A stretch of 64,000 bases of DNA, taken from the NCBI GenBank assembly GCA_948467605.1, contig CAOKET010000004.1, positions 7,799 through 71,798 on the forward strand, read 5' to 3'. The position numbers and the translations under genes are program-made. Below are positions 54,864 to 63,515 of this stretch, piece after piece (position 1 is the first letter of the stretch; the number at the start of each line of letters is the position of its first letter). Under the pieces are notes generated by a model. That model had not been told where the DNA came from, did not search any database, and saw only the letters and a list, made by a program, of their open reading frames with translations. The stretch comes from an uncultured Mycoplasmatota bacterium. Its GTDB lineage: Bacteria; Bacillota_I; Bacilli_A; RF39; UBA660.

Positions 54864-55157
54864 ATGGATTATAAAATTATAATTGATCCTGGACACGGAG
54901 GTAATGACCCAGGTGCTAGTGGAAATGGAATAATAGAAAAAGATTTGACTTTAAAGATATCAAATTATATGTATAACAGATTTAAGGAACTAGGTATACC
55001 TGTATTTATTACTAGATCAACAGATGAGACTTTATCACCTACTGAAAGAGTTAATAGAATAAAAGAATATGCTGGTAATGATAAAAATGTAGTAGTAGTA
55101 TCTAATCACATAAATGCAGGAGGTTCGATTGGAAAAATTGTGATGGCTAGAATATAG
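54864..55157 (+). pseudogene. 5' fragment of an N-acetylmuramoyl-L-alanine amidase (Amidase_3), interrupted near 55124
   Basis: IIIDPGHGGNDPGA, EKDLTL.IS, TRSTD..L...ER, SNHINAGG, then unrelated sequence and a stop; the C-terminal catalytic Glu segment is missing. Confidence 0.85.
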
Positions 55158-55307
55158 TGTATAACTTCATAAGCTCCTTGAATTATGGAACTTAAATTTA
55201 CTCTTGTTCCACAATTTGTTAGTTTGTTGGTACAAGAGTAATCAAAATATGAGTCTATTTTAATTAATAGGCTTTTTTAAGTGTGTAGAAAAAGGAGAAA
55301 ACAAAAT

Positions 55308-55727
55308 ATGATAGTAAGAGTTAAAAAAGATAAAGATTATACAGTAATGAGCAATTATCATTTTAAAGATAAGAATTTAAGTTTAAGGGCAAAAGGTTTG
55401 TTATCTCTAATGTTATCACTTCCTAATAATTGGGATTATTCAATTAATGGTTTATGTAGCATATGTAATGAATCGAGAACTACTATAAGAAATACTTTAA
55501 AAGAATTGAGAGATAATCATTATTTAGAAATGAATGAAAATCGTGATAAAAAAGGAAAATTTACTTATGATTATATAGTTTATGAAATTCCTAATATCAA
55601 TCCATAGGGTGATTTTCGCCTTGTGGATTTTCCGTATACGGGTTTTTATATACAATTAAGTATTTAAATAATAAAGTATTAAAAAACAAATAGATAAAAT
55701 AGATAAAACCAAAATTAAATTTTGGTA
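55308..55727 (+). pseudogene. Decayed HTH replication-initiator-like gene of phage/IME type
   Basis: MIVRVKKDKDYTVMSNYHFKDKNLSLRAKGLLSLMLSLP..WDYS..GL; TAG at 55605-55607, then coding-like GDFRLVDFPYTG and a shifted KQIDKIDKT tail. Confidence 0.7.
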
Positions 55728-55848
55728 AGTAAATTAATTGTAAATAGTCGATTTTTGTCGACAAATATAGTATAATTAAGATACTTAGTTATTCTTGAAT
55801 AATTAAAAGGTAAGTATTTATGAAGTTTGATTGGGGAGAGTAAAATTT

Positions 55849-56667
55849 ATGAATGAGAAAACTTATGATGAAGTATTAGATGAAAAAAATCCTAGAATAA
55901 AACAATTATATTGGAATATAGCTTTTGGCTTACAAGAAGTTGATAAGTTGAAACCATCAAAATATATGATTGAACTTGCTAATGAGCATATTAAAGGTGC
56001 TAAGACTTATAAAGAAGTTCAATATGAAATCAATTCTTATCATGAAAATAGTAATTCGAATGATGAAAAAGAAGCCGATGAAGTGGCAACGGCTATCTAT
56101 GAGATATTAAATGATGGTGCTTTTAGATTTGATTATTTGACTTATAAAAATTATCACAAAAGATTATTTCAAAATTTAGATAAAAAGGTTTATAAAGCCG
56201 GAGAATTTAGAACTCATAATTTTACCAAAGATGAAGAGATACTGGATAATGACACAGTTACTTATCAATCTTATGACTTAATTGAAAAAACTTTAAAATA
56301 TGATTTTGAAGAAGAAAAACAAATAGATTATTCTAAATTTACTAATGAAGAACTAATAAATAGAATCTCTGAATTTACATCGAGAATATGGCAAGTTCAT
56401 CCTTTTAATGAGGGAAACACAAGAACTACAGCTGTATTTATTCAAAAATATTTAATAAATATAGGTTTTGATGTTAATAATGATTTATTTAAGGATAATT
56501 CGTTATACTTTAGAAATGCTTTAGTAAGGGCTAATTATACTAATTATGCTAAAGGAGTAAAGGAAACCAAAAAATATTTAATTATGTTTTTTGAGAATTT
56601 GTTATTTAATAAAAATAATAAGTTAGAAAATAATGAATTATATATAATTGAAAAAGAGGATAATTAG
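55849..56667 (+). CDS. Fic family protein with an N-terminal VbhA-like segment
   Basis: Fic motif HPFNEGNTRT; N-terminal AFGLQEVDKLKPS helix. Confidence 0.88.
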   Translation: MNEKTYDEVLDEKNPRIKQLYWNIAFGLQEVDKLKPSKYMIELANEHIKGAKTYKEVQYEINSYHENSNSNDEKEADEVATAIYEILNDGAFRFDYLTYKNYHKRLFQNLDKKVYKAGEFRTHNFTKDEEILDNDTVTYQSYDLIEKTLKYDFEEEKQIDYSKFTNEELINRISEFTSRIWQVHPFNEGNTRTTAVFIQKYLINIGFDVNNDLFKDNSLYFRNALVRANYTNYAKGVKETKKYLIMFFENLLFNKNNKLENNELYIIEKEDN

Positions 56668-56685: not shown

Positions 56686-58251
56686 GTGAATAGGAAAGAG
56701 CACGAAAAAGAAGAACTTCATAAGACAATTTGGAAAATAGCTAATGAACTTAGAGGATCAGTAGATGGCTGGGATTTTAAACAATATGTTTTAGGTTTAT
56801 TATTTTATAGATTTATATCTGAAAACATTGAAAATTATGTTAATGATAATCAAAGAAAAGCAGGCATTGCAGATTTTGAATATAGAAATATCTCAGATGA
56901 AGAAGCTTTATTAGGTAAAACTCAGATATTAGAAGAAAAAGGTTTTTTTATATTGCCTAGTGAATTATTTTGCAATATAAGAAAAAGTGCAGATAAAAAT
57001 GAGAACTTAAATGTTGTTATATCTAATGTATTTAATAATATTGAAGCATCTGCTAGAGGTACTGCTTCAGAAAATGATGTTAAAGGTTTATTTGATGATT
57101 TTACAATAGATAATAAATTAGGTAATACTGTAGATGAAAGAAATGAAAAACTAGTTAGATTACTTAATGCTATAGGTGAATTAAGCTTTGGTGAATATAC
57201 AGACAATAATATTGATTTATTTGGTGATGCGTATGAATTTTTGATGACAATGTATGCATCTTCAGCTGGTAAATCTGGTGGTGAATTTTTTACACCTCAA
57301 GAAGTTGGAGAGTTACTTGCTAGGATTGTTATAATGGATAAGACTTCTGTTAATAAGGTTTATGATCCAGCTTGTGGATCAGGTGGATTATTACTTAAAT
57401 TTGCCAAGATACTAGGTAAAGAAAATGTAAGAGAAGGTTTCTTTGGGCAGGAGATTAATCTAACTACTTATAACCTAGCTAGAATTAATATGTTTTTACA
57501 CAATATTAATTATAATAATTTTAATATTGAACGAGGAGATACTTTAATACATCCTGTACATTGGGATGATGAGCCATTTGATGCAATTGTTTCTAATCCA
57601 CCATATTCTATTAAATGGGCAGGCAAAGAAAATCCTATACTTATTAATGATGAGAGATTTGCTCCTGCTGGAGTATTAGCTCCTTCATCAAAAGCAGATT
57701 TAGCATTTACTATGCACATGTTATCTTGGTTATCTTCAAAAGGAACTGCTGCAATAGTTGAGTTTCCTGGAGTTCTATATAGAGGTGGTGCAGAACAAAA
57801 AATCAGGCAATACATGATTGATAATAATTTTGTTGACACTGTTATTCAACTACCATCTGATTTATTTTTTGGAACTTCTATAGCAACTTGTATTTTAGTA
57901 TTAAAGAAGAATAAGACCGATAATAACATACTATTTGTGGATGCTAGTGATGAGTGTGTAAGAAATACTAATAAGAATAAATTATCTGATGATAATATTA
58001 ATAATATTGTTAATCTATTAAAAAATAGAGTAGCTGCTGATGGTAAAGCATATCTAGCTACTTATGAGGAAGTTAGGGATAATGATTATAATATCTCTGT
58101 TAACTCATATTTAAAAACTGACACCGGTGGCGAAACAATAGATATTGTAGAAGTAAATAGAAAATTGGCTGAGATAGTCCCAAGACAACAACAATTACGT
58201 GTTGAGTTAGAAAAGCTAATCAAAGAATTAGAGGTTGATTATCATGAATAA
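56686..58251 (+). CDS. hsdM: Type I R-M methyltransferase
   Basis: GGEFFTPQEV, YDPACGSGGLL, GQEIN, VSNPPYS (m6A motif IV), FPGVLYRG. Confidence 0.97.
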   Translation: MNRKEHEKEELHKTIWKIANELRGSVDGWDFKQYVLGLLFYRFISENIENYVNDNQRKAGIADFEYRNISDEEALLGKTQILEEKGFFILPSELFCNIRKSADKNENLNVVISNVFNNIEASARGTASENDVKGLFDDFTIDNKLGNTVDERNEKLVRLLNAIGELSFGEYTDNNIDLFGDAYEFLMTMYASSAGKSGGEFFTPQEVGELLARIVIMDKTSVNKVYDPACGSGGLLLKFAKILGKENVREGFFGQEINLTTYNLARINMFLHNINYNNFNIERGDTLIHPVHWDDEPFDAIVSNPPYSIKWAGKENPILINDERFAPAGVLAPSSKADLAFTMHMLSWLSSKGTAAIVEFPGVLYRGGAEQKIRQYMIDNNFVDTVIQLPSDLFFGTSIATCILVLKKNKTDNNILFVDASDECVRNTNKNKLSDDNINNIVNLLKNRVAADGKAYLATYEEVRDNDYNISVNSYLKTDTGGETIDIVEVNRKLAEIVPRQQQLRVELEKLIKELEVDYHE

Positions 58252-58681
58252 ATCAAATATGGATAAACTTGTAGTTGAACTGTTAAATAAAGTAAAAATT
58301 GATGATAGTAAATTATTAGAAAATGATGTTCATGAAATAACATTTGTATTCCGATTTGCACATTATCTCGCTAATATTATAGAAAATACAACAAGTTATA
58401 AAGTCGATATTGAATATAATAGAGATAAGAGTAATGTAAAACGAATTGATAACAAAATAAGAAGAGTCGATTTAATTGTTCACCAAAGAGCAACTAATGA
58501 TAATTTAATTGCTATTGAATTTAAAAAAGGATACGAATCTGAAACAGATAAGAGTGAATTAGAAAAACTTAAAATTGATTATTGCTATAAAAATATATAT
58601 TTCATAGATTTTAAATTAGGCAAAATCGAAACATATAATAATAATGAGTGGGTATATATACAAGGTGGCTACCATGAGTAG
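58244..58681 (+). CDS. Small PD-(D/E)xK-like nuclease inserted between hsdM and hsdS
   Basis: HE..F.FRFAHYL...VDIEYNR...RVDLIVHQR...NLIAIEFKK fits a D...ExK nuclease core. Confidence 0.6.
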   Translation: MNKSNMDKLVVELLNKVKIDDSKLLENDVHEITFVFRFAHYLANIIENTTSYKVDIEYNRDKSNVKRIDNKIRRVDLIVHQRATNDNLIAIEFKKGYESETDKSELEKLKIDYCYKNIYFIDFKLGKIETYNNNEWVYIQGGYHE

Positions 58682-59840
58682 GATTAATGATTTGATTAAA
58701 AAATTGTGTCCTAATGGAGTAAGCTATATTAAATTAGGTGAATTATTAGATTATGTTCAACCAACTAAGTATATTGTTAAAACTACAAATTATTGCCAAG
58801 AATATAAAACTCCTGTTTTGACTGCTGGACAGACATTTATTTTAGGATACACTAATGAAGAAGATGGAATTTATAAAGCAAGTAAAGATAATCCCGTAAT
58901 TATATTTGATGATTTTATGGCAACCAGTCATTTAGTAGATTTTAATTTTAAAGTTAAGTCATCAGCAATAAAAATATTAGTACCCAAAACAAACAATGTA
59001 TTTAAATATATTTATTATTGCATCGATAATATTAACTATATTCCTAAAGAGCATTCTAGACAATGGATTCAGAATTACAGCCAATTTAAAATACCTTTAC
59101 CACCAATTGAAGTGCAAGAAGAAATAGTACGGATTCTTGATAAATTTGGCGAGCTAGAAGCGGAGCTAGAAGCGGAGCTAGAAGCGAGAAAGAGTCAATA
59201 TGAATTTTGGTGTGGAAAATTGTTTGATTTTGAAGATAATGTTGAAAAGTTATCTTTAGAAAAACTATGTAATATTGTTGATTATAGAGGAAAAACACCA
59301 AAAAAGGTTGATTCAGGAATATTTTTAGTAACTGCAAAGAATATTAAAATGGGTTATATAGATTATGAATATTCAAAAGAGTATATAGCTGAAAAGGATT
59401 TAGAGGATGTTATGAGAAGAGGTAAAGCGAATGTTGGCGATGTTTTATTTACAACTGAAGCACCTTGTGGACATGTAGCGCAAGTAGATAAGAATAATAT
59501 TGCTTTGGCACAACGTGTAATCAAGTATTCCTCAAAAGATTTATTACAATTAAGTAATGAATACTTAAAATATGCTTTATTATCTCATCAATTTCAAAAC
59601 AAATTATCAGAAACTTCAACTGGATCTACTGTAAAAGGAATAAAGGGTTCAAAATTGCATAAAATGACTATCCCCGTTCCGTCTATTGAGAAACAAAATA
59701 AAATAGTTAGAATATTAGATAAATTTGATTCATTAGTTAATGATATTAATGTGGGTATTCCTGCTGAAATTGAATTAAGAAGACAACAATATGAATATTA
59801 TAGAAACAAATTATTGTCTTTTAACGAATTAAAGGAGTGA
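58674..59840 (+). CDS. hsdS: Type I R-M specificity subunit
   Basis: Two TRDs; conserved regions IPLPPIEVQEEIVRILDKF...ARKSQYE and IPVPSIEKQ..IV.ILDKF...RRQQYEYYRNKLLSF. Confidence 0.95.
   Translation: MSRINDLIKKLCPNGVSYIKLGELLDYVQPTKYIVKTTNYCQEYKTPVLTAGQTFILGYTNEEDGIYKASKDNPVIIFDDFMATSHLVDFNFKVKSSAIKILVPKTNNVFKYIYYCIDNINYIPKEHSRQWIQNYSQFKIPLPPIEVQEEIVRILDKFGELEAELEAELEARKSQYEFWCGKLFDFEDNVEKLSLEKLCNIVDYRGKTPKKVDSGIFLVTAKNIKMGYIDYEYSKEYIAEKDLEDVMRRGKANVGDVLFTTEAPCGHVAQVDKNNIALAQRVIKYSSKDLLQLSNEYLKYALLSHQFQNKLSETSTGSTVKGIKGSKLHKMTIPVPSIEKQNKIVRILDKFDSLVNDINVGIPAEIELRRQQYEYYRNKLLSFNELKE
59151..59186 (+). repeat. 12-bp tandem repeat x3 (GAGCTAGAAGCG) in the hsdS central region
   Basis: Three exact copies encoding ELEA ELEA ELEA. 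Confidence 0.95.
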
Positions 59841-60346
59841 ATATGAGAAAATTTAATCAAATTACTAAAAGATTATTTCAAATTTTTCTCTATTTATTAG
59901 AAACACTTGGTTTTGCATTAGTTTTAACATTAATAACTAATAAATTTTTATCTCCTACTAACTGGTTTGATATTCTTGAAAGAGTAACTATATATTATAC
60001 TTTATATCAAATTGTTATTTATAATATTTTACAGCAGTTAAATGATATTAAAAAAGATGAATATTTGGCTCTATTATCAATGTATAAATATGTTGAAATT
60101 TATAATTCAGATAAGAAGGAAGATATAAGAAAAGACATATATTGTCTAATTGAAAGTCAATTAAATAATGATATGCTAAATGATGTAAATATTAAAAATG
60201 AATATAATGAAATAAAAAAAGTTTTAGATAATAAAGGAAAGTTTGATGAAACAAAGATTAAAGTAAAAATTTTAAAATATGAACATTGTTATGAAGAAGT
60301 AGTGTTAAATTGGAAGTATTCGATTTTACTTAGAATATTTAAATAG
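59837..60346 (+). CDS. Hypothetical protein with two N-terminal TM helices, between hsdS and hsdR
   Basis: LFQIFLYLLETLGFALVLTLIT and VTIYYTLYQIVIY, then a soluble helical domain; GTG at 59837 overlaps the hsdS TGA (alternative ATG at 59843). Confidence 0.7.
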   Translation: MNMRKFNQITKRLFQIFLYLLETLGFALVLTLITNKFLSPTNWFDILERVTIYYTLYQIVIYNILQQLNDIKKDEYLALLSMYKYVEIYNSDKKEDIRKDIYCLIESQLNNDMLNDVNIKNEYNEIKKVLDNKGKFDETKIKVKILKYEHCYEEVVLNWKYSILLRIFK

Positions 60347-60358
60347 GAAGTGAAGAAA

Positions 60359-63300
60359 ATGAGTAATATAGGTTTAATAAGTGAGAATGATAACTCTACT
60401 GTATTAGCAGAATATACAGGTTTAAATAGAGTGGCTACATCTTTTCAAAGTGAGGATGCTCTTGAAAAAGAGCTTATTAAAACATTAGTAGATCAAGGAT
60501 ATGATTATTTAACTATTAATTCTGAAGATGAATTAATTTTAAATTTAAGAAGACAATTAGAAAAATTAAATAATTATGCCTTTACTGATGGTGAATGGGA
60601 TTCATTCTTTGCTAAGGTTATTGCTAATAAAAATGATTACATTATAGAAAAGACTAGACTTATTCAAGAGGATTATAAGCAAGAGATTACGCTTGATTCT
60701 GGTGCTAAGAAAAATATTTATCTAATAGATAAGAATAATATCCATAACAATAGCGTTCAAGTATTAAATCAATATGTTAATAATGAAGGAAATTACGATA
60801 ATAGATATGATGTCACTATTTTAGTTAATGGTCTTCCTTTAGTTCATGTAGAACTTAAAAAACGAGGAGTAGATTTAAGAGAAGCATTCAACCAAATAGA
60901 AAGATATCAAAGAGATTCATTTTGGGCAGGATGTGGGTTATATAATTTTGTTCAAATATTTGTTATATCTAATGGGACACTTACTAAGTATTATTCTAAT
61001 ACCACTAGAGAGTTTCATATCAATAATCAGAAAAAAAAGAAATCTAATTCATTTGAATTTACTTCCTATTGGGCAGACCAAAAAAATAATGGGATAACTG
61101 ATTTAATTGATTTTGCTAAAACTTTTTTAACTAAGCATACTTTACTTAATGTCTTAACTAAATATTGTGTATTTACTAGTGAAGAAGATCTACTGGTTAT
61201 GAGACCTTATCAGATAGTTGCAACCGAGAAGATATTAAATAGAATAACTATTGCTTATAACAGCAAGTTCTATGGGTCTATTAAGTCTGGTGGTTATATA
61301 TGGCATACAACTGGTTCAGGTAAGACACTTACTTCTTTTAAAACATCACAACTTGCTAGTAAATTAGGTTTTATTGATAAGGTTTTGTTTGTTGTAGATA
61401 GAAAAGATTTAGATTATCAAACAATGAAAGAATATGATAGGTTTAAGGAAGGTGCAGCTAACTCTAATACCTCTACTAAGGTGTTGGAGGAACAATTGCA
61501 TGATCCTAATGCTAAAATCATTATTACAACTATTCAAAAACTTTCTCAGTTTATTAAGAAGAATGAGAATAGTGAAGTTTTTAATAAGCATGTAGTATTT
61601 ATTTTTGATGAATGTCATAGGTCACAATTTGGCGATATGCATAAAGCTATTATAAAAAAATTTAACAAATATTATTTATTTGGTTTTACAGGTACACCAA
61701 TATTTCCAGAGAATGCTAGAACTATTAAATGTGTAGCTGAAACTACTGAGCAAATCTTTGGAGAGAGATTACATACTTATACAATTGTTAATGCAATTGC
61801 TGATAAGAATGTTTTACCTTTCAAATATGAATATGTTGGTAGAGTTGATATTAGAGATGATGTTAATGATGAAAAAGTTTACAATATAGATGAAGAAAAA
61901 TTATTTGATAATCAGATGAGAATAAGTATGATTACCTTATATATAATTGATCATTTTAGTACCAAGACAAAGACTAGTGAAAGCTATGTATATTCAACTC
62001 TTGATAATGTAATAGAAGTTGCCAAAAAGCAAGATACAGAGGAAATTAAGACTAAGAAAAATGTTAATGGTTTTAATTCAATATTTGCTGTTTCTAGTAT
62101 CAAAATGGCAAAGGAATACTATGCTGAATTTAAAAAAGAATTATCTTTTAGTAATAGCAATCTTAAAGTAGCATTAATTTATTCTTATGGCGTTAATGGT
62201 GAAGATGGAGTTATTGATGAAAATTCTGAGTCTACGGAGGCACTTAGTACTGATGATAGAACATTCTTAGAAGGTGCTATTAAAGATTATAATAAGATGT
62301 TTGGTACAAGTTATGATACATCATCAGAACGTTTTCAAAATTATTATAAAGATGTCTCGTTAAGAATGAAAAATAGAGAGATAGATATTTTAATCGTTGC
62401 TAATATGTTTTTAACTGGATTTGATGCTAAGACATTAAATACATTATGGGTGGATAAAAACCTTAAGTGGCATGGCTTGATACAAGCTTTTTCTAGAACT
62501 AATAGAATACTTAATAGTGTAAAAACATATGGTAATATTGTTTCGTTTAGAAATTTAGAGGATAGACTTAATGAGGCACTTGCTAAATTTGGCGATGAAG
62601 AGGCACATGGTGTAGTTTTACTAAAACCATATAAAGATTATTATTATGGTTATCAATATGATAATGGTAAAACATTTGAAGGTTATAAGTCACTAGTTGA
62701 AAAATTAACTTCTAAATTTGCACCTGGTGAGTTAATGCAAAGTGAAGCAGATCAGAAAGAGTTTATCAAACTATATGGTGCTATTCTTAAAGTGACTAAT
62801 ATTTTGTCATCATTTGATGAGTTCAAAGATGACGAACTAATTAATGAAAGAGATAAGCAAGACTACCATAGTGTTTATATTGAACTATATAATGACTTTA
62901 GAAATAGAACAAAACAGGAAAAAACAGATGTTACTGATGATGTAGTATTTGAAATGGAACTTATCAAATCTATAGAAGTTAACATTGATTATATCTTGGG
63001 ATTAGTTAAGAAGTATCATGACTCTAACATGGAGGATAAAGAGATACTTATTACTATAGAGAAAACTATCATGGCAAGCCCTGATTTAAGAAATAAGAAG
63101 GATTTAATTATGGCATTTATTGATTCACTTGATCAGGATTCAAATGTATATGGGGATTTTGAATCATTCATGAATAGTAAAAGACGTGAAGAACTAGATA
63201 GGATAATAAGCGAAGAAAACCTAAATAAAGATGAAACATATAGTTTTATTCAAAGGGCTTTCGAACAAGGTAGAGTGGAAACTAATGGTACAGAAGTATC

Positions 63301-63427
63301 AACTATACTTCCACCTATGAGTATGTTTACTCCTACTAATGATAGACAAGAAAAGAAAAATAAGGTTATTGATAGATTACTTGAATTTTTCGACAAATTT
63401 TTTAGTATATCTAATGACAAATTTTAA
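60359..63427 (+). CDS. hsdR: Type I R-M restriction subunit (EcoR124I-like)
   Basis: RYDVTILVNGLPLVHVELKK nuclease, HTTGSGKT, DECHR, FGFTGTP, FLTGFD, QAFSRTNR. Confidence 0.97.
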   Translation: MSNIGLISENDNSTVLAEYTGLNRVATSFQSEDALEKELIKTLVDQGYDYLTINSEDELILNLRRQLEKLNNYAFTDGEWDSFFAKVIANKNDYIIEKTRLIQEDYKQEITLDSGAKKNIYLIDKNNIHNNSVQVLNQYVNNEGNYDNRYDVTILVNGLPLVHVELKKRGVDLREAFNQIERYQRDSFWAGCGLYNFVQIFVISNGTLTKYYSNTTREFHINNQKKKKSNSFEFTSYWADQKNNGITDLIDFAKTFLTKHTLLNVLTKYCVFTSEEDLLVMRPYQIVATEKILNRITIAYNSKFYGSIKSGGYIWHTTGSGKTLTSFKTSQLASKLGFIDKVLFVVDRKDLDYQTMKEYDRFKEGAANSNTSTKVLEEQLHDPNAKIIITTIQKLSQFIKKNENSEVFNKHVVFIFDECHRSQFGDMHKAIIKKFNKYYLFGFTGTPIFPENARTIKCVAETTEQIFGERLHTYTIVNAIADKNVLPFKYEYVGRVDIRDDVNDEKVYNIDEEKLFDNQMRISMITLYIIDHFSTKTKTSESYVYSTLDNVIEVAKKQDTEEIKTKKNVNGFNSIFAVSSIKMAKEYYAEFKKELSFSNSNLKVALIYSYGVNGEDGVIDENSESTEALSTDDRTFLEGAIKDYNKMFGTSYDTSSERFQNYYKDVSLRMKNREIDILIVANMFLTGFDAKTLNTLWVDKNLKWHGLIQAFSRTNRILNSVKTYGNIVSFRNLEDRLNEALAKFGDEEAHGVVLLKPYKDYYYGYQYDNGKTFEGYKSLVEKLTSKFAPGELMQSEADQKEFIKLYGAILKVTNILSSFDEFKDDELINERDKQDYHSVYIELYNDFRNRTKQEKTDVTDDVVFEMELIKSIEVNIDYILGLVKKYHDSNMEDKEILITIEKTIMASPDLRNKKDLIMAFIDSLDQDSNVYGDFESFMNSKRREELDRIISEENLNKDETYSFIQRAFEQGRVETNGTEVSTILPPMSMFTPTNDRQEKKNKVIDRLLEFFDKFFSISNDKF

Positions 63428-63515
63428 AACTTAGTGTAGCAAAAAATATAGCCAATTTATTTTCAAATTGGCTATATAAAACAATATTCATCACTTTTTA
63501 ATAATCATATCTAGT

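What the first reader, a model, noticed from the sequence alone, without database searches (positions are those of the whole stretch)
56686..63427. Type IC-like R-M operon with two embedded, translationally coupled cargo genes
Seen: the order is hsdM - nuclease-like ORF - hsdS - 2-TM ORF - hsdR, all overlapping or nearly abutting. Known: genes nested in type I R-M operons can be back-up effectors; PrrC sits between hsdS and hsdR of EcoprrI and fires when the R-M is inhibited by phage. Inference: a small PD-(D/E)xK nuclease plus a membrane protein could form an undescribed R-M-guarding abortive-infection layer.
Basis: partly seen in the sequence, partly recalled or inferred. Interest (0 to 1): 0.72.

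Follow-up and report, generated by a model that had tools for sequence, protein, structure and literature searches.

The report
Restriction operon with two independent inserted genes
A restriction-modification operon from a mouse-gut bacterium has two small extra genes at its gene junctions, a nuclease related to a known anti-phage protein and an uncharacterised membrane protein; related operons show they were acquired separately and are not a two-part system.

Summary
On the + strand, 56686-63427 reads hsdM, a 145-aa ORF, hsdS, a 167-aa ORF, hsdR. All junctions overlap or lie within 12 nt. HsdR is EcoR124I-like (2.8e-247), so the system is type IC.

The 145-aa protein is a real PD-(D/E)xK nuclease-fold protein. 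It is a homologue of PD-lambda-3A, part of a known E. coli abortive-infection system, but the HEPN partner is absent.

The 167-aa protein is all-helical, with one clear and one weaker membrane helix. It matches no family or fold library.

The pairing idea is not supported. Among sister type IC operons the two slots assort independently:
- nuclease plus an empty second slot;
- nuclease plus DUF4145, ORF218 or ORF222;
- no nuclease plus the membrane gene.

Homologues of the membrane protein lie mostly outside R-M loci. The nuclease subfamily is tied to the hsdM/hsdS junction in 7 of 8 close lineages and in 4 distant ones, and never sits in the hsdS/hsdR slot.

Genes embedded in type I R-M operons are already well described (PrrC, DarTG2, "guilt-by-embedding"). 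I read this as new cargo in a known kind of arrangement, of moderate interest. The junction-specific nuclease is the part worth testing.

The parts
55849..56667 (+). Fic-domain accessory gene immediately upstream of hsdM. The HPFxxGNxR motif is present. The likely start is the ATG at 55849; the ORF listing gave a TTG at 55831.
   Evidence: Pfam Fic 1.3e-10. PADLOC PDC-S72 1.9e-81. Its stop lies 19 nt before the hsdM GTG. The same gene occupies the same position in the sister locus L081.
56686..58251 (+). hsdM, the type I methyltransferase subunit.
   Evidence: N6_Mtase 1.4e-109 and HsdM_N 3.8e-18. TIGR00497 1.7e-212. GGAGG lies 8 nt before the GTG at 56686.
58244..58681 (+). 145-aa PD-(D/E)xK nuclease-fold protein, a PD-lambda-3A homologue, inserted exactly in the hsdM/hsdS overlap.
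   Evidence: PADLOC PD-Lambda-3_A 8e-16. 28% identity, E 3e-15, to a bona fide E. coli PD-lambda-3A. AlphaFold2 pLDDT 87. Foldseek top hits are restriction-endonuclease-like folds: 3ijm 4e-4, the DrdV chain and TT1808. E31, D76, E92 and K94 are conserved in all or nearly all homologues. dN/dS 0.20.
58244..58251 (+). First copy of the coupling octamer ATGAATAA (start of the nuclease gene, stop of hsdM).
   Evidence: Sequence. The same 8-nt overlap joins hsdM and hsdS directly in the uninterrupted operon L016.
58674..58681 (+). Second copy of the coupling octamer ATGAGTAG (start of hsdS, stop of the nuclease gene).
   Evidence: Sequence. Both junctions are 8-nt overlaps in all five loci compared (window, L081, L005, L006, L083). 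The bases flanking the two octamers are 10-16 of 27 identical, against 8.3 +/- 2.4 for random pairs.
58674..59840 (+). hsdS, the specificity subunit with two target-recognition domains. The central conserved region contains a perfect 12-bp x3 repeat at 59151-59186.
   Evidence: Methylase_S in 2 stretches, 4.8e-29. PADLOC Specificity_I 2.8e-102, aligned from residue 11 of the longer ORF, which supports the ATG at 58674. Tandem repeat.
59843..60346 (+). 167-aa all-helical membrane-anchored protein of an uncharacterised family, in the hsdS-hsdR (PrrC/DarTG) slot.
   Evidence: No hit in Pfam, PADLOC, NCBIfam or PHROGs. AlphaFold2 pLDDT 84, helices only. No PDB or BFVD fold match. TM1 is strong and TM2 weak. 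85 close homologues, and 158 clusters at 50% identity, almost all stand-alone proteins of about 160-175 aa. dN/dS about 0.24.
60359..63427 (+). hsdR, the type IC restriction/translocase subunit.
   Evidence: HSDR_N, SWI2_SNF2, T1R_D3-like and EcoR124_C 3.7e-63. EcoR124I HsdR 2w00 at 2.8e-247.
63446..63477 (.). 14-bp-stem palindromic hairpin 19 nt after the hsdR stop; the likely operon terminator.
   Evidence: Terminator scan. It was called on the - strand; the stem is palindromic, so a + strand role is inferred.

Best explanation
This is a type IC (EcoR124-family) restriction-modification operon on a mobile defence island of a low-GC mouse-gut bacterium. It has picked up accessory genes at its gene junctions independently of one another.

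The three accessory genes are:
(1) a Fic protein upstream of hsdM;
[quoted passage not shown] It is inserted exactly into the 8-nt hsdM/hsdS overlap, so both junctions keep the same stop/start octamer;
(3) a 167-aa membrane-anchored helical protein of an uncharacterised family, inserted between hsdS and hsdR, a known hotspot for embedded defence genes.

What is shown: the anatomy, the homologies, the purifying selection, and the independent assortment of the two slots among sister operons.

What is inferred: all genes are co-transcribed and translationally coupled, and each cargo gene acts as its own accessory anti-phage module.
- The nuclease most likely acts as a DNA-cutting effector or sensor co-produced with the methyltransferase core.
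- The membrane protein possibly acts as a membrane-acting effector or anchor.
They are not an obligate pair. Nothing here shows that either one monitors the R-M enzyme as PrrC does.
For: Operon anatomy and type IC identity.

Nuclease identity:
- PADLOC PD-Lambda-3_A 8e-16.
- Pairwise E 3e-15 to a canonical PD-lambda-3A, which sits beside its TIGR02391/HEPN partner on an E. coli plasmid.
- Restriction-endonuclease-like fold.
- Conserved E31, D76, E92, K94.

Independent assortment among sister type IC operons:
- L081 and L083: nuclease with an empty second slot.
- L005: nuclease with DUF4145.
- L006: nuclease with ORF218.
- L092: nuclease with ORF222.
- L016-19: no nuclease, membrane gene plus ORF149.

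Positional specificity of the nuclease:
- It lies between hsdM and hsdS in 7 of 8 close lineages.
- It does so in 4 distant lineages with unrelated HsdM (25-27% identity): L031, L032, L069, L089.
- It was never seen in the second slot.

The membrane-protein family lies mostly outside R-M loci.

Both genes are under purifying selection.

Literature: embedding in type I R-M is used to predict defence genes (10.1101/2024.01.29.577857). The hsdS-hsdR site is described as a recombination hotspot that holds DarTG2 (PMC12255303).
Against: - No functional data exist for either cargo protein.
- In the wider PD-lambda-3A-like family (50 species-level loci), only 3 are in type I operons. There is no conserved neighbour, and some neighbours are housekeeping genes. 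A defence role is therefore not guaranteed for every member.
- The membrane protein has no PADLOC or PHROGs hit. One lineage sits next to an aminotransferase and a tRNA-editing gene, which does not look like a defence context.
- Co-transcription was not shown. Only DNA metagenome runs were listed for this stretch when all run kinds were asked for.
- The census rests on a few dozen loci, not a full database count.
Confidence: 0.62

Rival explanations
1. The small nuclease and the membrane protein act together as one abortive-infection layer that fires when a phage inhibits the R-M enzyme, as PrrC does in EcoprrI.
For: - Both genes are embedded in, and coupled to, the same type IC operon.
- The membrane gene is in the PrrC position.
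- PD-lambda-3, whose A component is homologous to the nuclease, is an abortive-infection system (PMC13190303; PMC9519451 supplement).
Against: - The two families co-occur only in this window among all loci examined.
- Sister operons carry one without the other.
- Most homologues of the membrane protein are outside R-M loci.
- Neither protein resembles PrrC (no PADLOC PrrC hit).
Confidence: 0.07
2. The nuclease is a stoichiometric accessory subunit of the M2S1 methyltransferase core, making a split type IIG/IIB-like arrangement. It would give HsdR-independent, site-directed cutting, or would read the state of the core enzyme. It would not be a free-standing defence module.
For: - It has a strict hsdM-X-hsdS position in 11 lineages across unrelated type I families and was never seen in the second slot.
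- The 8-nt stop/start overlap is kept on both sides, which favours matched expression with M and S.
- Its fold hits include a DrdV chain (type IIL) and BpuSI (type IIG). In those enzymes, from my own knowledge, a similar nuclease domain is fused to an HsdM-like methylase and a specificity domain (HHpred BpuSI_N for PD-lambda-3A).
- It evolves faster than its flanking genes: dN/dS 0.20 against 0.05-0.08.
Against: - Most members of the wider family are not in R-M loci.
- A 59-61% identical homologue sits beside a Mokosh-like helicase instead. Others sit beside a reverse transcriptase, a KAP NTPase or a HEPN protein.
- The Foldseek output does not say which part of DrdV was aligned.
- No interaction data exist.
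Confidence: 0.15
3. The 167-aa membrane protein is not a defence gene. It is a small conserved membrane protein of gut Firmicutes that hitch-hikes on mobile DNA and landed in a permissive intergenic hotspot.
For: - It has four different genomic contexts, including one beside an aminotransferase and a tRNA-editing gene.
- It has no hit in PADLOC or PHROGs and is absent from viral contigs and plasmids.
- It has no fused effector domains in 158 cluster representatives.
Against: - In three of the four contexts it directly follows or overlaps a defence-type or mobile-element gene: hsdS, a 351-aa orphan whose relative also sits beside an R-M operon in L005, or a GNAT gene next to a PDC-M11B-like gene on a mobilisable element.
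- The hsdS-hsdR slot is a documented site for defence cargo (PMC12255303).
- The sequence is strongly conserved, including a charged residue in the first membrane helix.
Confidence: 0.35

Closest known systems
PD-lambda-3 (Vassallo et al. 2022, PMC9519451), component A
   Same: The 145-aa protein is a near-full-length homologue of PD-lambda-3A: PADLOC 8e-16, and 28% identity with E 3e-15 to a canonical copy. It shares the motifs E...FRFA.YL, VD.EYNR, D.IVH.R and EFKK, and the PD-(D/E)xK fold.
   Different: - The HEPN partner (TIGR02391/AbiJ-like, component B) and the third gene (a restriction endonuclease) are absent from the operon and from the whole 64-kb window.
- The gene is wired into the hsdM/hsdS overlap of a type I operon instead.
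- Identity to the E. coli protein is low.
EcoR124I / EcoprrI type IC restriction-modification systems
   Same: - HsdR is EcoR124I-like (2.8e-247) with the EcoR124_C domain.
- The gene order is M-S-R.
- hsdS has a 12-bp repeat in its central conserved region, as EcoR124 has (the EcoR124 comparison is from my own knowledge).
- A cargo gene sits between hsdS and hsdR, as prrC does in EcoprrI.
   Different: - There is a second cargo gene between hsdM and hsdS, and a Fic gene upstream.
- The cargo in the PrrC position is a 167-aa membrane protein, not an ATPase-anticodon nuclease.
Defence genes embedded in type I R-M operons ('guilt-by-embedding', Payne et al. 2024 bioRxiv 10.1101/2024.01.29.577857; DarTG2 in the EPEC type I system, PMC12255303)
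   Same: The general architecture is the same: unrelated accessory genes nested between hsd genes and co-oriented with them. The hsdS-hsdR site acts as an exchange hotspot. The upstream Fic gene matches one of that study's candidate families (PDC-S72).
   Different: - The membrane protein family has no PADLOC model.
- The nuclease is reported here at a specific, junction-precise position (hsdM/hsdS). I did not find that position described in the papers I could search.
Nuclease domains of type IIG/IIL restriction enzymes (BpuSI, DrdV)
   Same: The predicted fold is similar: Foldseek to the DrdV chain 7lo5, probability 1.0 and TM 0.57, and to BpuSI 3s1s at a lower rank. HHpred gives BpuSI_N as the top hit for PD-lambda-3A in the Vassallo supplement.
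   Different: Here the nuclease is a separate small protein encoded between the methylase and specificity genes, not an N-terminal fused domain. Sequence identity is 11-17%. Any functional analogy is inference only.

Membership tests
Type IC restriction-modification system (EcoR124 family) | HsdR with the family-specific C-terminal domain, and closest similarity to EcoR124I HsdR | tested here: met
   PF12008 EcoR124_C 3.7e-63. PDB 2w00 at 2.8e-247.
Type IC restriction-modification system (EcoR124 family) | HsdM and a two-TRD HsdS are present, in the gene order hsdM-hsdS-hsdR | tested here: met
   TIGR00497 1.7e-212. Methylase_S in 2 stretches. Order.
Type IC restriction-modification system (EcoR124 family) | ATP-dependent restriction and N6-adenine methylation activity | not testable with these tools
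   Needs methylome and restriction assays.
PD-lambda-3 abortive-infection system | Component A (a small PD-(D/E)xK protein) | tested here: met
   PADLOC PDLC03986 8e-16. BLASTP 3e-15 to a canonical A.
PD-lambda-3 abortive-infection system | Component B (an AbiJ_NTD3 + TIGR02391/HEPN protein) adjacent to A | tested here: not met
   None of the operon proteins hits PD-Lambda-3_B at E <= 0.1. tblastn with E. coli PD-lambda-3B and 3C finds nothing in the 64-kb window.
PD-lambda-3 abortive-infection system | Abortive-infection phenotype against phage | not testable with these tools
   Needs phage assays.
PD-(D/E)xK nuclease superfamily | Restriction-endonuclease-like alpha/beta core fold | tested here: met
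   AlphaFold2 pLDDT 87. Foldseek 3ijm 4.2e-4 with TM 0.60, plus a DrdV chain, TT1808 and DUF820 proteins.
PD-(D/E)xK nuclease superfamily | Catalytic D ... (D/E)-x-K signature conserved | tested here: met
   D76 is invariant, and E92 and K94 are conserved in at least 90% of 15 homologues. E31 is also invariant.
PD-(D/E)xK nuclease superfamily | Nuclease activity | not testable with these tools
   Needs a biochemical assay.
PrrC-type R-M-guarding anticodon nuclease | Gene located between hsdS and hsdR of a type IC operon | tested here: met
   The 167-aa ORF lies at 59843-60346, between hsdS and hsdR. This feature concerns position only.
PrrC-type R-M-guarding anticodon nuclease | N-terminal ABC-type ATPase domain plus a C-terminal anticodon nuclease domain | tested here: not met
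   The protein has 167 aa, is all-helical and has membrane helices. It gives no PADLOC, Pfam or NCBIfam hit.
PrrC-type R-M-guarding anticodon nuclease | Kept latent by binding the R-M enzyme and released by a phage anti-restriction factor | not testable with these tools
   Needs interaction and infection experiments.
PADLOC phage-defence candidates (PDC) embedded in type I R-M | Matches a PDC profile | tested here: inconclusive
   Fic upstream gene: PDC-S72 1.9e-81. 145-aa protein: only PD-Lambda-3_A. 167-aa protein: no PADLOC hit.
Two-pass membrane effector proteins of defence systems | Two transmembrane helices | tested here: inconclusive
   TM1 (about residues 10-32) has Kyte-Doolittle 2.1. 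TM2 (about residues 47-65) scores below 1.2 here and 1.2-1.6 in homologues. AlphaFold2 gives a helical hairpin, and the charges fit N-in/C-in. No dedicated topology predictor was available.

The most novel reading that the evidence does not exclude
The PD-lambda-3A-like nuclease subfamily is a dedicated partner of the type I methyltransferase core (M2S1). It is co-translated with HsdM and HsdS through a duplicated stop/start junction.

In this reading it would do one of two things:
- give the core an HsdR-independent cutting activity, making a split type IIG-like enzyme; or
- sense when the core is blocked by phage anti-restriction proteins and then cut DNA.

The membrane protein in the second slot would be a separate new membrane-acting or membrane-tethering defence module that can plug into several different upstream genes.
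Probability: 0.15. Interest if true: 0.75.

Novelty: new member of a known kind. Interest (0 to 1): 0.42.

Why it matters
Type I R-M operons are already known to act as docking sites for other defence genes, so the architecture itself is not new. Three points are worth following up.

1. A PD-lambda-3A-like nuclease recurs at one exact position, the hsdM/hsdS overlap, in Bacilli, Bacteroidota and other lineages. It keeps the coupling octamer on both sides. This suggests a functional link to the methyltransferase core that can be tested directly.

2. The same small nuclease is found beside very different partners: a HEPN protein, a Mokosh-like helicase, a KAP NTPase, a reverse transcriptase, and type I R-M genes. 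It may therefore be a reusable part of defence systems.

3. A well-conserved membrane protein family with no annotation and no fold match appears in the PrrC/DarTG slot.

If either protein proves to be an anti-phage factor, it would add a new component to the defence catalogue of gut Firmicutes. If not, the locus remains a clear example of modular cargo exchange in R-M operons.

Tried and rejected
I used tblastn on the 64-kb window instead.
- Laying contigs of four mouse-gut DNA runs on the operon, to look for empty-site variants, gave only low-depth fragments and spurious joints. It was uninformative.
- No RNA runs were listed for this stretch when all run kinds were asked for, so co-transcription could not be checked.
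- The first genome scan with the broad nuclease alignment failed because it had no conserved stretch. It worked after trimming to close homologues.
- I tested whether the 149-aa ORF that follows the membrane gene in L016 is a diverged copy of the nuclease. It is not: BLASTP E 11 and no PADLOC hit.
- I tested whether the 351-aa protein that usually precedes the membrane gene is an HsdS relative. It has no PADLOC, Pfam or PDB hit.
- Fold searches of the membrane protein against PDB and BFVD gave nothing below E 0.6. Sequence profiles of both cargo families against PDB also gave nothing significant.
- A phage origin was rejected for both families. PHROGs gave no hits. Viral contigs gave none for the membrane protein and two distant hits for the nuclease.
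- The 'YHE' identity at the ends of HsdM and the nuclease was checked. Two of the three residues are forced by the 8-nt overlap with a conserved hsdS start. The flanking similarity is only modestly above random, and is clear only in L081.
Full report
**Observation**

The region 56686-63427 carries five co-oriented genes on the + strand.
- hsdM, 56686-58251. The start is a GTG 8 nt behind GGAGG. N6_Mtase 1.4e-109 and TIGR00497 1.7e-212.
- A 145-aa ORF, 58244-58681.
- hsdS, 58674-59840, with two Methylase_S stretches. The PADLOC alignment supports the ATG at 58674.
- A 167-aa ORF, 59843-60346.
- hsdR, 60359-63427, with HSDR_N, SWI2_SNF2, T1R_D3-like and EcoR124_C.

HsdR matches EcoR124I HsdR (PDB 2w00) at 2.8e-247, so 'type IC-like' is correct.

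The junctions were read from the sequence.
- hsdM and the 145-aa ORF overlap by 8 nt (ATGAATAA).
- The 145-aa ORF and hsdS overlap by 8 nt (ATGAGTAG).
- The 167-aa ORF starts 2 nt after the hsdS stop, behind AAGGAG.
- hsdR starts 12 nt after the 167-aa ORF's stop.

A palindromic hairpin at 63446-63477 closes the unit. A Fic gene (55849-56667; PADLOC PDC-S72, 1.9e-81) ends 19 nt before hsdM and is a third accessory gene of the same unit. The only public runs listed for this stretch, asked for all kinds, are mouse-gut DNA metagenomes.

**The 145-aa protein**

It has no Pfam or NCBIfam hit. It matches the PADLOC profile PD-Lambda-3_A over nearly its whole length (8e-16).

PD-lambda-3 is an E. coli system found by functional selection. 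Its discoverers summarised it as 'Nuclease, HEPN' (PMC9519451 supplement), and it was later used as an abortive-infection control (PMC13190303).

I found a canonical copy on an E. coli IncHI1B plasmid beside brxL. It comprises:
- a 159-aa A protein (PADLOC 2.3e-100);
- a 267-aa TIGR02391 protein (PD-Lambda-3_B, 1.2e-179);
- a 477-aa restriction endonuclease.

The window's protein aligns to that A protein at 28% identity, E 3e-15. It shares the E...FRFA.YL, VD.EYNR, D.IVH.R and EFKK motifs.

AlphaFold2 on a 15-sequence alignment gives pLDDT 87. The best PDB fold matches are restriction-endonuclease-like proteins: 3ijm at E 4e-4 and TM 0.60, a DrdV chain, TT1808 and DUF820 proteins. E31 and D76 are invariant, and E92 and K94 are conserved in at least 90% of the homologues. 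It is therefore a PD-(D/E)xK-fold protein with an intact signature.

It is not a PD-lambda-3 system. No B or C component is present in the operon or anywhere in the 64-kb window.

**The 167-aa protein**

It gives no hit in Pfam, PADLOC, NCBIfam or PHROGs. It has no sequence or fold match in PDB or BFVD.

AlphaFold2 (pLDDT 84) predicts only helices: a hairpin (2-35, 41-90) followed by four shorter helices.
- The first helix is clearly hydrophobic (Kyte-Doolittle 2.1) and carries an invariant glutamate.
- The second scores below 1.2 in this copy and 1.2-1.6 in homologues.
- Basic residues before helix 1 and after helix 2 fit an N-in/C-in hairpin.

'2-TM' is therefore plausible but not settled.

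The family is small and tight. There are 85 close homologues at 38-68% identity. There are 158 clusters at 50% identity, almost all stand-alone proteins of 160-175 aa without fused domains.

**Are the two cargo genes one system?**

Contexts of homologues say no. The table lists sister type IC operons whose HsdM is 68-92% identical to the window's.

| Locus | Slot 1 (hsdM/hsdS) | Slot 2 (hsdS/hsdR) |
|---|---|---|
| window | nuclease | membrane gene |
| L081/82 | nuclease (81% id) | empty; half-size hsdS runs straight into hsdR |
| L083/84 | nuclease | empty |
| L005 | nuclease | DUF4145 / PD-T7-4-like gene |
| L006/07 | nuclease | ORF218 |
| L092/93 | nuclease | ORF222 |
| L094 | nuclease | not on the contig |
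| L016-19 | empty; hsdM and hsdS overlap directly by the same 8 nt | membrane-gene homologue (48% id) plus an unrelated ORF149 |
| L020 | not on the contig | membrane-gene homologue |

DNA alignment of the window with L081 (about 88% identity) shows homology running through Fic, hsdM, the nuclease gene and the first 45 nt of hsdS. It resumes exactly at the hsdR start. The two slots are filled and emptied independently.

**Where else the families occur**

The membrane-protein family lies mostly outside R-M loci.
- Its most abundant lineage follows, and overlaps, a 351-aa orphan gene ahead of a HAD hydrolase (also L021-28).
- A second abundant lineage sits between a GNAT gene and a PDC-M11B-like gene on a mobilisable element.
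- A third lineage stands alone before an aminotransferase.
- It is absent from plasmids and viral contigs.

The nuclease behaves differently.
- In 7 of 8 sampled close lineages (at least 47% identity) it lies between hsdM and hsdS. The eighth follows a 908-aa Mokosh-like SF1 helicase.
- In the wider family (50 species-level loci, 25-42% identity) there is no conserved neighbour.
- It still appears between hsdM and hsdS in Paludibacteraceae (L031), Bacteroides (L032), an unclassified MAG (L069, with a Fic/RhuM gene) and an IMG/VR contig (L089). The HsdM proteins of these loci are only 25-27% identical to the window's.
- Elsewhere it sits next to a KAP/PifA-like NTPase, two genes downstream of MkoC, next to a PIN-TPR protein, a reverse transcriptase or a PD-lambda-3B homologue. 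It also sits next to housekeeping genes.
- It was never seen in the hsdS/hsdR slot.

**Junction detail**

In all five sister loci compared, both sides of the nuclease gene have the 8-nt overlap ATGAnTAn. The uninterrupted operon L016 has the same overlap between hsdM and hsdS. The insert therefore looks like an in-register cassette bounded by two copies of the coupling octamer.

The 'YHE' ending shared by HsdM and the nuclease is largely forced by that overlap and the conserved hsdS start. Outside the octamer the two junctions share 10-16 of 27 bases, against 8.3 +/- 2.4 for random pairs. Only L081 is clearly above chance (gattatcATGAgTAg against gattatcATGAaTAa). Duplication of the hsdM 3' end is likely but only modestly supported.

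**Selection**

Between the window and L081 (dS about 0.4-0.6), dN/dS is 0.20 for the nuclease, 0.08 for hsdM and 0.05 for hsdR. For the membrane protein it is about 0.24, at saturated dS. Both are functional genes. The nuclease evolves faster than its flanking genes.

**Mechanism**

The best-supported reading is a type IC operon acting as a docking platform for independent accessory genes. All would be expressed from one transcript and coupled through overlapping or abutting starts. The anatomy is shown; the expression is inferred.
- The nuclease most likely acts as an extra DNA-cutting effector or sensor made together with the M and S subunits. Its strict position suggests a link with the M2S1 core, but this is inference.
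- The membrane protein may be a membrane-acting effector or an anchor. A non-defence role cannot be excluded.
- Nothing tested here shows PrrC-like guarding.

**Comparison with what is known**

- Embedding of defence genes in type I R-M is established. PrrC is described as almost exclusively embedded in type I R-M systems. 'Guilt-by-embedding' produced 145 candidate systems (10.1101/2024.01.29.577857).
- DarTG2 sits between hsdS and hsdR in EPEC, and that site is called a potential recombination hotspot (PMC12255303).
- The present locus is a further member of this kind, with new cargo. I did not find the junction-precise hsdM/hsdS position of a PD-lambda-3A-like nuclease described in the searchable literature. 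Absence from that search is weak evidence.

**Verdict**

- The pair and guardian interpretation is largely unsupported.
- Novelty is modest: new cargo in a known arrangement.
- Interest is moderate, and most of it rests on the recurrent, position-specific nuclease.

Noticed in passing
window 59151-59186: There is a perfect 12-bp x3 tandem repeat (GAGCTAGAAGCG, encoding ELEA x3) in the central conserved region of hsdS. From my own knowledge, the copy number of a similar 12-bp repeat sets the spacer length of the EcoR124 recognition site. Five relatives have the same copy number.
   Followed up: partly
window 54864-55607; L081 3873-4617; L016 12769-14145: The island begins with a ~100-aa N-terminal Amidase_3 fragment followed by an HTH_36 gene. 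The same fragment-HTH_36-Fic order is found in L081. In L016 the homologous sequence is the 5' end of a full-length 458-aa amidase on the other side of the R-M island.
   Followed up: partly
L081 4844-6424: In the closest sister locus, the Fic gene is split at the position matching window ~56410 by a 760-bp insert. The insert carries a 183-aa SAM-methyltransferase gene.
   Followed up: no
L081 8431-9027: The sister operon has a half-size HsdS (198 aa). Its central conserved region is fused to the C-terminal conserved region (ELEAELEAELEARKSQYEYYRNKLLSF). This looks like a deletion of the second target-recognition domain by recombination between the two internal repeats.
   Followed up: partly
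L008 5390-7522; L021-L028; L005 4526-5866: A 185-aa and a 351-aa orphan gene recurrently precede the membrane-protein gene, and the 351-aa gene overlaps it. A 446-aa relative of the 351-aa protein (37% identity) sits just upstream of the type I operon in L005. The 351-aa protein has no family hit. An Rx6H-like motif (RKCRNNLH) near its C-terminus might indicate a HEPN-like protein.
   Followed up: partly
L001/L029/L030 5196-8447; L066 3940-8705: PD-lambda-3A-like genes lie directly downstream of a 908-aa Mokosh-like SF1 helicase with a DUF2726 C-terminus in two Bacilli MAGs. In a Clostridiales MAG one lies two genes downstream of a MkoC protein (PADLOC 2e-285). This may be a recurring helicase-nuclease association.
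   Followed up: partly
L095 4200-6459; L096 505-2764: A distant homologue of the nuclease follows a 564-aa reverse transcriptase (RVT_1). The locus is a defence-island-like context with AAA_15/RloB, DndB-like and N6_N4 methylase genes.
   Followed up: no
L089 7821-10538: In an IMG/VR contig, the hsdS-hsdR slot of a type I operon that also carries the nuclease holds two genes: an HNH/CTD10 gene and a DUF2326/CTD10 gene (ABC-3C-type components).
   Followed up: no
window 55735-55776: Upstream of the Fic gene, a TATAAT box is preceded by a short repeat, gtcgatttttgtcgac. It may be the island promoter with an operator. The promoter scan overall found no more sites than in shuffled sequence.
   Followed up: no
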